Origin: the human T2T-CHM13v2.0 reference genome, Homo sapiens | Direction: 5' to 3' | Length of the DNA: 64,000 nucleotides | NCBI GenBank assembly: GCA_009914755.4 | Contig: CP068257.2 | Span: 32,512,001-32,576,000, forward strand | Shown here: positions 29,281-30,544 of the stretch, piece after piece | How positions within the stretch are numbered: position 1 is the stretch's first letter | How the letters are laid out: each line of letters opens with the position of its first letter | The notes under the pieces: generated by a model | The model's database searches: none | What the model saw: only the letters and a program-made list of their open reading frames with translations | What the model was told of the DNA's origin: nothing | Made by a program: the position numbers and the translations under genes

Positions 29281-29720
29281 CAGCCTACGCCGCCCAAGCC
29301 CAAAGGCACAGGGAGGGCAACCTCAGACACCCGCTTGTAGGGCAGGGACATCTCCTGTTAGGCTTTCCTCGGGAAGAAAAAAGGGAGGAAGTGGCCTCCC
29401 CTGCCTCACCCGCCCGCCGCTGGTGAAAGCTCGGGGCAGCTGACCCACCTGCCCAAGCCATAGAATGCAACAGCGGTGCCTGCAGCTTCTGTGCCTGCGG
29501 GGCTTATCTTGCTGGTGGTCGACGATCTGCAGATGGTTTAACTCCACTCCTGTCTCCCGCCCTGGGGCTGCCAATCTGTCCAAAACTCAGCTGCCTGCTG
29601 GTCTGCACTGCGGAGGGCTTGGGGCCCCCACTCGAGGGGCCTGAGCTTCTCAGAGGCGTCTCCTGAATAAAACAAAACGCCGTGTGCTGCGCGCTTTGTG
29701 TGGGGGCTGCTTCACTCTGT
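29281..29720. promoter_or_regulatory. CpG-rich block (weak CpG island) with a CpG-retaining tail to about 30.5 kb; candidate unmethylated promoter or non-coding first exon
   Basis: Hand count gives about 20 CpG in about 420 bp at roughly 60% GC ('acgccgcc', 'cacccgcccgccgctgg', 'ggtcgacgatc', 'ctgcggag', 'ctcgagg', 'aacgccgtgtgctgcgcgc'), for an observed/expected ratio of roughly 0.5. CpGs continue at lower density through 30500 ('acacgcgaag', 'gccgcagagcacggtcgc', 'ttccgaaaag'). This is unlike the CpG-depleted unique DNA elsewhere in the window. Confidence 0.35.
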
Positions 29721-30544
29721 GTCTCTCGATCACAGCTGCAAATTCCAGTTTTATCTGTTGTGTTTTTGAGCCTGTTTGCTTTTGATTACAGTTTGGTTTT
29801 GAAAGAGAAGAGGCACACACTATCCAGCTCCCTTTCTTCTCTCTCAGATGGAGCAATAGAGCTTTTTTATAGTGGAATCGGTTTTTTCCATTATTGCGCA
29901 TTTAATTTTATTATTCTACCGCCTTGCATTTTGAATTGCATAGGGGAAGAAACACATAAAAGAATACTCCCCCGCCCTGCCCCCCTAGTTGATTGTCGAA
30001 AAAAAAAAGATGTAGCATGATGATTTTTTGCCTGTGACCAACAGAATTACATTTTACGTTTGAAAGAACTCTCCGTGTGAACGCTGTCAACACAACAGAT
30101 ACGGATACAAGATTCAAAGTACGGTCAACCCCTCACATCACACGCGAAGTCCATTTCCTCCATTGCTGATGGTTCTCTCCAAGGCCGCAGTGTGCCGCAG
30201 AGCACGGTCGCTTGGGCTTCCGAAAAGAAGCTGAGTACAGTATTCATTTTGCGCATCTGCCTTTCTATTCAAACCAACTGAAAACATCGTTTAATTCCAG
30301 GTGCTCTGGTCTAGCTTTCGTTACAGCCACTGTGGCTCCCAGTTACTTCTTCATCACCCTGGTCTTTGTTTTCTTGCTCTGGAAAGAGGACAAGGAAAAC
30401 CTCGGTCTTTGGAATGAAGTGTGTCCCTTACTTGCTCAAACAGGCTTGCAAAAGATCTGGTTGCATTTTACATGAAGCCTTGTTACATGTTGTAAAGTTT
30501 TCGTTCTTAGGTCTGAATCCACATTTCTTACCATTTTCTTTTTC

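What the first reader, a model, noticed from the sequence alone, without database searches (positions are those of the whole stretch)
29281..30540. CpG-retaining block about 16-17 kb downstream of MRPS6: candidate unmethylated promoter or non-coding RNA first exon
Unique, non-repeat sequence here keeps many CpGs: about 20 in 29281-29700 at about 60% GC, then continued CpGs ('acacgcgaag', 'gccgcagagcacggtcgcttgggcttccgaaaag', 'ttgcgcatctg', 'cctcggtc') out to about 30500. Neighbouring unique DNA is CpG-depleted. Retention of CpG over evolutionary time implies germline hypomethylation, which is typical of promoters and CpG islands. The block is framed by an unusually dense Alu cluster (6 Alus between 26.5 and 31.4 kb), which is common around CpG islands. 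No protein ORF is supported; ORFs 29682-30020 and 30212-30475 are short and have no homology I recognise. From memory, a lncRNA (LINC00310/C21orf82) is annotated somewhere downstream of MRPS6 on chr21. Whether this block is its promoter is speculation that needs checking. Candidate GT donor sites exist ('ttaattccag|gtgctctgg' near 30298 and 'gttcttag|gtctgaat' near 30508), but they are weak evidence.
Basis: partly seen in the sequence, partly recalled or inferred. Interest (0 to 1): 0.6.

Follow-up and report, generated by a model that had tools for sequence, protein, structure and literature searches.

The report
Weak CpG island downstream of MRPS6
An old 1.4 kb stretch of human chromosome 21 has kept its CpG sites while the matching rodent DNA lost them, which fits an ordinary weak CpG island or regulatory element that stays unmethylated in the germline, and it is not the promoter of the RefSeq LINC00310 gene.

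Summary
Window 29281-30540 has 43 CpGs, 49% GC and o/e 0.57, against 0.23 in non-Alu background. It is the clearest CpG outlier in the window (P about 1e-7). It is only a borderline CpG island. With the best boundaries (29149-30323) it just reaches GC 50.6% and o/e 0.600. It fails the Takai-Jones criteria and a UCSC-style density score.

The block is ancient unique DNA, not an insertion, because rat and blind mole rat carry colinear orthologues. Those orthologues are CpG-depleted (o/e 0.19 and 0.05). Of 17 well-aligned human CpGs, 14 are TpG or CpA in the mole rat and none is CpG.

The two Alus touching the block keep about twice the CpGs expected for their age. The next Alus outward do not. 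This points to a roughly 2 kb domain of slow CpG decay, most simply long-term germline hypomethylation.

Whether the block is a promoter or an enhancer cannot be decided with these tools. Published LINC00310 primers place the RefSeq gene at 50.8-60.1 kb, about 20 kb downstream. The minus strand has a TATA box and stronger donor-like sites. I found no coding or known RNA-family signal. This is an ordinary kind of feature and of low interest.

The parts
29143..30540 (.). Unique CpG-retaining block, taken at its full extent between two Alus. The finding covers 29281-30540.
   Evidence: It is the top CpG outlier among non-Alu windows. No other copy exists in the window.
29149..30323 (.). Longest segment that just meets the Gardiner-Garden and Frommer thresholds: 1175 bp, GC 50.6%, 45 CpGs, o/e 0.600.
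   Evidence: The same call shows that no Takai-Jones window exists, no high-CpG-promoter-type 500-bp window exists, and a +17/-1 density score yields no island.
29143..29700 (.). GC-rich sub-block with about 62% GC and o/e about 0.5. It carries four GGGCGG boxes, all on the minus strand (at 29295, 29415, 29562 and, further on, 29977), three CAGCTG E-boxes and an AGGAAGT ETS-like site.
   Evidence: It aligns poorly with rodent DNA (45-64% identity, with gaps).
29697..29960 (.). Moderately conserved core. It is 78.8% identical between human and Nannospalax and is deleted in rat, where a (CA)n repeat stands in its place.
   Evidence: The local baseline identity is about 58-66%.
29900..30300 (.). 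AT-rich sub-block that is essentially not CpG-depleted: 36-53% GC and o/e 0.75-1.1 per 100 bp.
   Evidence: The highest 500-bp o/e, 0.88, is at 29855-30354 with GC 43%.
28873..29142 (-). Old Alu touching the left edge of the block. It keeps 8 of 25 consensus CpGs where 3.6 are expected for its 15.3% non-CpG divergence.
   Evidence: P = 0.019.
30561..30849 (-). Younger Alu inserted into the block, with the target-site duplication ACCATTTTCT at 30530-30539 and 30850-30859. It keeps 14 of 26 consensus CpGs where 8.6 are expected for its 6.1% divergence.
   Evidence: P = 0.023.
29865..29871 (-). TATAAAA on the minus strand, the only TATA match in the block. Nannospalax retains it as TATAAAG.
   Evidence: This is a consensus match only and is not evidence of function.
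29403..29451 (-). Two strong donor-like sites on the minus strand: CAG|GTGGGT with its first intron base at 29448 (9.9 bits), and CGG|GTGAGG at 29409 (9.2 bits). The human stretch containing them has no rodent counterpart.
   Evidence: The minus strand of the block has four sites of 8 bits or more, against about one expected.
29665..29706 (+). AATAAA followed by a GT-rich stretch (TGTGTGGGGG). This is a poly(A)-signal-like arrangement on the plus strand.
   Evidence: Read directly. It was not tested further.

Best explanation
The block is an ancient piece of unique intergenic DNA. In the lineage leading to human it has sat inside a domain of slow CpG decay about 2 kb long, roughly 28.87-30.85 kb. 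The most likely cause is that the DNA is unmethylated or only lightly methylated in germline cells, because proteins such as transcription factors or a weak promoter complex occupy it. Unmethylated cytosines do not undergo the fast 5-methylcytosine to thymine change, so CpGs survive. That includes CpGs in Alus that landed at the edge of the domain or inside it. In muroid rodents the protection was lost and the same DNA decayed to TpG/CpA. In sequence terms it is a weak, intermediate-CpG island without an annotated gene start (an 'orphan' island), that is, a regulatory element. Shown here: the CpG excess, the orthology, the rodent decay and the excess CpG retention in the abutting Alus. Inferred: hypomethylation as the cause, and a regulatory function. 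Open: whether it is a promoter or an enhancer, and on which strand. If it is a promoter, the minus strand fits better, with a TATA box at 29871 and donor-like sites at 29448 and 29409.
For: The CpG excess is real and local. The block is not a young insertion, because alignments are colinear with rat L001 (human 28357-28619, 30040-30089, 30215-30551 and 30850-31056) and with Nannospalax L009 (29144-29377, and 29697-30114 at E = 5e-52). The rodent orthologues are CpG-depleted, at o/e 0.19 in rat and 0.05 in Nannospalax, against 0.46 for the human stretch with its flanks. Of 17 human CpGs in well-aligned context, none is CpG in Nannospalax, 14 are TG or CA and 3 are something else. Other dinucleotides are conserved 51% of the time. 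The two Alus touching the block keep 8 and 14 consensus CpGs where 3.6 and 8.6 are expected from an age-retention fit to the other 18 Alus (P = 0.019 and 0.023). The next Alus outward (28064-28352 and 31127-31411) show no excess. Alu CpGs are not under selection and their ancestral state is known, so this supports a regional mutational cause. Retention does not follow sequence conservation: the most CpG-dense part (30040-30300) aligns worst, and every CpG in the conserved core has decayed in the mole rat. GC boxes, E-boxes and ETS, C/EBP, GATA and FOX consensus matches are present, which is weak evidence. By the sequence criteria of Weber et al., recalled from my own knowledge, the block is of intermediate-CpG class: 701 of 904 500-bp windows have o/e above 0.48 and none is of the high-CpG type.
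Against: I had no methylation, chromatin or transcript data. The block fails the stricter island definitions. It shows no GC skew of the kind seen downstream of strong CpG-island promoters. Only rodents could be compared, so without an outgroup the CG-versus-TG/CA pattern could in principle reflect gains in the human lineage. The Alu test rests on two elements, and two other Alus (23996 and 25321) also show some excess (P = 0.07 and 0.03). The TF-site matches are simple consensus hits.
Confidence: 0.6

Rival explanations
1. The block is an upstream alternative promoter or first exon of LINC00310, or of another long non-coding RNA on the plus strand.
For: The block lies on the same side of MRPS6 as LINC00310 and 20 kb upstream of it. 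From memory, and unverified, newer GENCODE models extend LINC00310 5' to about window 27.8 kb, which is close to the block but not inside it. A CAG|GTGACC donor-like site lies at about 27908.
Against: The RefSeq 5' end maps to 50758. The plus strand carries an AATAAA with a GT-rich element at 29665-29706, which looks more like a transcript 3' end than a 5' end. The 27.7-28.0 kb stretch has no CpGs.
Confidence: 0.15
2. GC-biased gene conversion at a recombination hotspot created or preserved CpGs in the human lineage, with methylation playing no part.
For: A match to the degenerate PRDM9 13-mer lies at 29972 (CCGCCCTGCCCCC). The human-CG versus rodent-TG/CA pattern has no outgroup to polarise it. 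In the two abutting Alus, S-to-W changes do not outnumber W-to-S changes (14 against 16), unlike the other Alus (187 against 132), though the difference does not look significant (no formal test was run).
Against: Non-CpG sites show no excess of strong bases in human over the rodents: 208 against 178 versus Nannospalax, and 217 against 241 versus rat. GC content is not raised in human (49.8%) compared with rat (52.9%) or Nannospalax (46.7%). The degenerate 13-mer is common by chance. Hotspots are short-lived, yet retention is seen in an Alu with 15% divergence as well as one with 6%.
Confidence: 0.1
3. Purifying selection on a conserved non-coding element, such as an enhancer or RNA whose sequence matters, keeps the CpGs, whatever the methylation state.
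For: The core at 29697-29960 is 78.8% identical between human and Nannospalax, above the local 58-66% baseline.
Against: All human CpGs inside that core are TG or CA in the mole rat, and rat has deleted the core entirely. The densest CpG stretch aligns poorly. Neutral Alu CpGs next to the block are also retained. No Rfam family and no ORF homology were found.
Confidence: 0.08
4. The block is a recent insertion that has had no time to lose CpGs, such as a transposable element, an LTR, a processed pseudogene or a mitochondrial DNA fragment.
For: The block is bracketed by repeats and contains an AATAAA and a run of 10 A.
Against: Colinear orthologous sequence exists in rat and Nannospalax on both sides of the block and inside it. 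There is no second copy in the window. No protein homology was found in any long ORF, and there is no RNA-family match.
Confidence: 0.02

Closest known systems
Orphan or weak CpG islands and intermediate-CpG promoters (Gardiner-Garden and Frommer 1987; Weber et al. 2007; Illingworth et al. 2010; cited from my own knowledge)
   Same: A block of about 1.2 kb of unique DNA with CpG o/e about 0.6 and GC about 50%, lying away from any annotated protein-gene start, with GC boxes and evidence of long-term CpG protection.
   Different: It only just reaches the loosest thresholds and fails the stricter ones. Half of it is AT-rich (43% GC) with o/e close to 1, which is not typical island composition. 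No TSS or unmethylated state was shown here.
Low-methylated regions at distal regulatory elements (Stadler et al. 2011; cited from my own knowledge)
   Same: Intermediate CpG density, distance from promoters, a cluster of TF consensus sites and a moderately conserved core.
   Different: Such regions are defined by measured methylation of about 30% and by TF occupancy, neither of which can be tested here. They are usually CpG-poorer than this block.
Erosion of CpG islands in the rodent lineage (Antequera and Bird 1993; Matsuo et al. 1993; cited from my own knowledge)
   Same: Human keeps the CpGs, while the orthologous rat and mole-rat DNA has TpG/CpA and o/e of 0.05-0.19.
   Different: Only muroid rodents could be examined. 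No outgroup confirms that the ancestor was CpG-rich.
LINC00310 (C21orf82) promoter
   Different: The RefSeq transcript used in PMC6111859 starts at window 50758, about 20 kb downstream of the block.

Membership tests
CpG island, Gardiner-Garden and Frommer criteria | At least 200 bp with GC of at least 50% and CpG o/e of at least 0.6 | tested here: inconclusive
   The finding's own coordinates give GC 49.0% and o/e 0.57, which fails. With optimised boundaries, 29149-30323 gives GC 50.6% and o/e 0.600, exactly on the thresholds. No 200-bp window at 50-bp steps passes inside the block.
CpG island, Takai-Jones criteria | At least 500 bp with GC of at least 55% and o/e of at least 0.65 | tested here: not met
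   No qualifying 500-bp window exists.
CpG island, UCSC-style density scoring | A run scoring positive with +17 per CpG and -1 per other base, longer than 200 bp, with GC of at least 50% and o/e above 0.6 | tested here: not met
   My own re-implementation found no such run in 28-32 kb or anywhere else in the window, so it lacks a positive control. Independently of the code, the mean spacing of one CpG per 26 bp is too sparse for the block as a whole to score positive. The implementation is approximate and was not checked against UCSC's code.
Intermediate-CpG promoter class (Weber et al.) | 500-bp windows with o/e above 0.48 but none with both o/e above 0.75 and GC above 55% | tested here: met
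   701 of 904 windows have o/e above 0.48 and none is of the high-CpG type. This covers the sequence criterion only.
Intermediate-CpG promoter class (Weber et al.) | The region contains a transcription start site | not testable with these tools
   No CAGE, EST or RNA-seq data were available. The ORFs of the block are absent from the protein collection that includes assembled sequencing runs, which says nothing either way.
Non-methylated island or germline-hypomethylated region | Measured absence of CpG methylation in germ cells | not testable with these tools
   Only indirect evidence is available: CpG retention against rodents and in the abutting Alus.
LINC00310 promoter or first exon (RefSeq model) | Overlap with the 5' end of the transcript | tested here: not met
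   The cloning primer LINC00310-R1-5.1 maps to 50758-50777. The guide RNAs said to sit at the 5' and 3' extremities map to 50188 and 60089.
Young transposable element or retrocopy | Absence from the orthologous locus in distant species, or multiple copies, or TE or coding homology | tested here: not met
   Orthologous DNA is present in rat and Nannospalax. The block is single-copy in the window. No protein or Rfam hits were found. No Dfam/RepeatMasker library was available.

The most novel reading that the evidence does not exclude
The block is a primate-retained, rodent-eroded orphan CpG island that drives an unannotated minus-strand transcript. Its features would be a TATA box at 29871, a start near 29840, and a first exon of about 390-430 nt ending at the donor at 29448 or 29409. 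Alternatively it acts as a germline or early-embryo enhancer inside the SLC5A3-MRPS6-KCNE2 disease-association region. In either case part of that locus's regulation would be absent from mouse and rat models.
Probability: 0.15. Interest if true: 0.35.

Novelty: new member of a known kind. Interest (0 to 1): 0.15.

Why it matters
The block lies in the SLC5A3-MRPS6-LINC00310-KCNE2 region. Papers found here link that region to coronary disease, arterial dissection and migraine association signals. A regulatory element that is kept in the human lineage but decayed or partly deleted in rat and mole rat would be invisible in rodent models of the locus. Beyond that, this is a routine example of a weak CpG island. 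Public methylome, CAGE and chromatin tracks would settle its status in minutes.

Tried and rejected
1. I concatenated seven ORFs of the block (556 aa) and searched them against the 5.8-billion-protein collection. Nothing scored. An exact look-up of the 112-aa ORF also found nothing, and Pfam gave no hits for five ORFs. Coding function, an ERV and a coding retrocopy were therefore rejected. This route also gave no primate sequences and no transcript contigs.

2. Rfam returned only Alu-derived SRP and miRNA-like hits, both at gathering thresholds over the whole window and at permissive thresholds over 28.3-31.2 kb. Nothing fell in the block.

3. I reached orthologues through MRPS6 plus a 10 kb flank. 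Only rat and Nannospalax reach the block. Shrew, sea otter, Molossus, Artibeus, Sturnira, naked mole-rat, pika and pocket mouse all stop short, at human-equivalent positions of about 18.5 to 28 kb. Peromyscus isoform X2 was not on record. As a result no outgroup and no primate could be compared. The last 460 bp of the Artibeus flank are GC-rich with o/e 0.35-0.69 but cannot be aligned to the human block.

4. A metagenome scan for the conserved 20-mer TTTTGAATTGCATAGGGGAA found no matches.

5. Literature searches for clone-based lncRNA names and for coordinate strings gave nothing usable.

6. The human MRPS6 isoforms in the protein collection differ only at the N-terminus. None splices into downstream DNA.

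7. The GC-skew, CTCF, NRF1, YY1, CRE and octamer scans were all negative.

Full report
**Where the window is.** The window is human chromosome 21, plus strand. The last coding exon of MRPS6 (residues 63-125, 100% identical) lies at 12485-12673. An AATAAA follows at 13087.

| Interval | CpGs | GC | o/e |
|---|---|---|---|
| 29281-30540 (the finding) | 43 | 49.0% | 0.570 |
| 29281-29700 | 20 | 61.7% | 0.50 |
| 29701-30540 | 23 | 42.7% | 0.60 |
| Non-Alu DNA of the window | 10.6 per kb | 43.0% | 0.228 |

With them set aside, windows over the block rank first among 1,788 non-Alu windows of 1260 bp.
- The next independent windows have at most 28 CpGs and o/e of at most 0.41.
- At the background o/e, 17.2 CpGs are expected, giving Poisson P = 1.3e-7.
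- Six Alus do lie between 26562 and 31411.
- The unique block really runs 29143-30540. The Alu at 30561-30849 carries the target-site duplication ACCATTTTCT, so the same ancestral sequence continues at 30860.
- The CpG excess has two parts. A GC-rich part at 29150-29700 has o/e about 0.5. An AT-rich part at 29900-30300 has o/e 0.75-1.1 per 100 bp.

**Is it a CpG island?** Only marginally.
- No 200-bp window at 50-bp steps passes GC of at least 50% with o/e of at least 0.6 inside the block.
- With free boundaries, the longest passing segment is 29149-30323: 1175 bp, GC 50.6%, 45 CpGs and o/e 0.600. That is exactly on the thresholds.
- No Takai-Jones window exists, and a UCSC-style +17/-1 density score gives no island. 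That score is my own approximate re-implementation.
- By the sequence criteria for promoter classes, the block is of the intermediate-CpG type.

**Is it a young insertion?** No.
- The block has no second copy in the window.
- It has no Rfam match.
- No protein homology exists for any long ORF.
- To obtain orthologues I retrieved MRPS6 proteins and fetched their genes with 10 kb of downstream flank.
- In rat, the flank aligns colinearly with human 25.9-31.06 kb. The pieces are human 28357-28619, 30040-30089, 30215-30551 and 30850-31056.
- In the blind mole rat Nannospalax, it aligns with 29144-29377 and with 29697-30114 (E = 5e-52).
- The block was therefore already present in the common ancestor of primates and rodents.
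- Eight other species' flanks stop short of the block.

**What happened to the CpGs?**
- The orthologous rodent DNA is CpG-depleted. Rat has o/e 0.19 and Nannospalax 0.05 (4 CpGs in 1590 bp). The human stretch with its flanks has 0.46.
- In a three-way alignment, 17 human CpGs lie in well-aligned context against Nannospalax. None is CpG there, 14 are TG or CA and 3 are something else.
- Other dinucleotides are conserved 51% of the time.
- This is the footprint of methylation-driven decay in the rodent lineage, with retention in the human lineage. Without an outgroup, gains in the human lineage cannot be formally excluded.

**Regional cause or selection?** I aligned each of 20 full-length Alus to the consensus. 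I then compared non-CpG divergence, which stands for age, with the fraction of consensus CpGs still present.
- I fitted an exponential relation to the other 18 Alus.
- The two Alus that touch the block are high outliers: 28873-29142 keeps 8 CpGs where 3.6 are expected (P = 0.019), and 30561-30849 keeps 14 where 8.6 are expected (P = 0.023). The only comparable value elsewhere is P = 0.028 for the Alu at 25321-25599.
- The next Alus outward, 28064-28352 and 31127-31411, show no excess.
- Alu CpGs are neutral and their ancestral state is known. This argues for a regional slowing of CpG decay over about 28.87-30.85 kb, lasting tens of millions of years.
- Selection is also disfavoured because retention does not follow conservation. 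The best-conserved core (29697-29960, 78.8% identity to Nannospalax against a 58-66% baseline) has lost all its CpGs in the mole rat. Rat has deleted that core outright. The CpG-densest stretch aligns worst.
- Biased gene conversion gets little support. Non-CpG sites show no excess of strong bases in human, and the abutting Alus show no significant W-to-S shift. A degenerate PRDM9-motif match does exist at 29972.

**What is it for?** This is inference.
- The simplest reading is a region that stays hypomethylated in the germline because it is occupied. That would make it a weak or orphan CpG island, or a low-methylated regulatory element.
- Consensus matches include four GC boxes (all in minus orientation), three CAGCTG E-boxes, and ETS-like, C/EBP-like, GATA and FOX sites. 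These are weak evidence.
- There is no GC skew.

**The link to LINC00310.**
- Table S1 of PMC6111859 lists the primers and guide RNAs for the RefSeq gene.
- Mapped onto the window, the 5' cloning primer lies at 50758. The guides described as sitting at the 5' and 3' extremities of the gene lie at 50188 and 60089.
- The block is therefore about 20 kb upstream of that gene and is not its promoter.
- From memory only, newer GENCODE models may extend LINC00310 5' to about window 27.8 kb. That would put the block in a first intron. I could not check this.

**Splice donors.**
No plus-strand site in the block reaches 7 bits.
- The minus strand has four sites of 8 bits or more, against about one expected.
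- Two of them (29448 at 9.9 bits, 29409 at 9.2 bits) lie about 400 nt downstream, in the minus sense, of the only TATA box in the block (TATAAAA at 29871, minus strand).
- If the block is a promoter, the minus strand is the better candidate. This is a consensus-level argument, and the donor-bearing stretch has no rodent counterpart.

**Verdict.** The specific labels (canonical CpG island, LINC00310 promoter, plus-strand first exon) are not supported. The feature belongs to a well-known kind and is of low general interest. Public methylome, CAGE and chromatin tracks would settle its status directly.

Noticed in passing
window 50188-60920: The RefSeq LINC00310 gene lies here on the plus strand. 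Published primers map as follows: 5' cloning primer at 50758-50777, qPCR primers at 59538-59557 and 59716-59735, guide RNAs at 50188-50207 and 60089-60108, and donor arms at 49478-50166 and 60158-60920. The 3' cloning primer was not found with up to 2 mismatches.
   Followed up: yes
window about 18.5-25.6 kb: This stretch of human DNA has no counterpart in rat, Nannospalax or three bats. Much of it, up to about 22.7 kb, aligns in sea otter and naked mole-rat. It therefore looks like ancestral DNA deleted independently in muroids and bats. That deletion is why only the muroid flanks (rat, Nannospalax) reach the block, while the two phyllostomid bats fall just short.
   Followed up: partly
window 23996-24278 and 25321-25599: These two Alus also keep more consensus CpGs than their age predicts: 10 of 25 each, with P = 0.07 and 0.03. 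This may mark a second patch of slow CpG decay, or it may be noise. It weakens the specificity of the Alu test a little.
   Followed up: no
L001 about 70,600-70,800 (rat) against window 29697-29960: Rat has lost the moderately conserved core of the block and carries a (CA)n microsatellite there. Nannospalax keeps the core, with (CA)n runs on both sides. Both rodents also have B1-like SINE insertions opposite human 30.1-30.3 kb.
   Followed up: partly
L004 10001-10375 (Lutra lutra): An intronless copy encoding the full 124-aa MRPS6 protein sits downstream of LMF1, with CNDH2 and MIOX also nearby. It looks like an intact processed retrocopy in the otter.
   Followed up: no
window 62385-62501: The only Rfam hit above gathering score in the whole window, Metazoa_SRP at 74.6 bits, is the left arm of an Alu (62385-62671). 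It is not an SRP RNA gene.
   Followed up: yes
window 30187-30210: There is a small near-tandem duplication, GCCGCAGTGT / GCCGCAGAGC. About 20 bases here have no counterpart in rat, so part of the local CpG density comes from a short human-lineage duplication.
   Followed up: no
L006 75300-75763 (Artibeus) and the matching end of L011 (Sturnira): The last 460 bp or so of the Artibeus flank, just where the orthologue of the block should begin, are GC-rich (54-65%) with CpG o/e 0.35-0.69; these figures were computed for Artibeus only, and Sturnira aligns to it at about 85% identity. This hints that the CpG-rich state also exists in a laurasiatherian. The sequence could not be aligned to human and the flank ends there.
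   Followed up: partly
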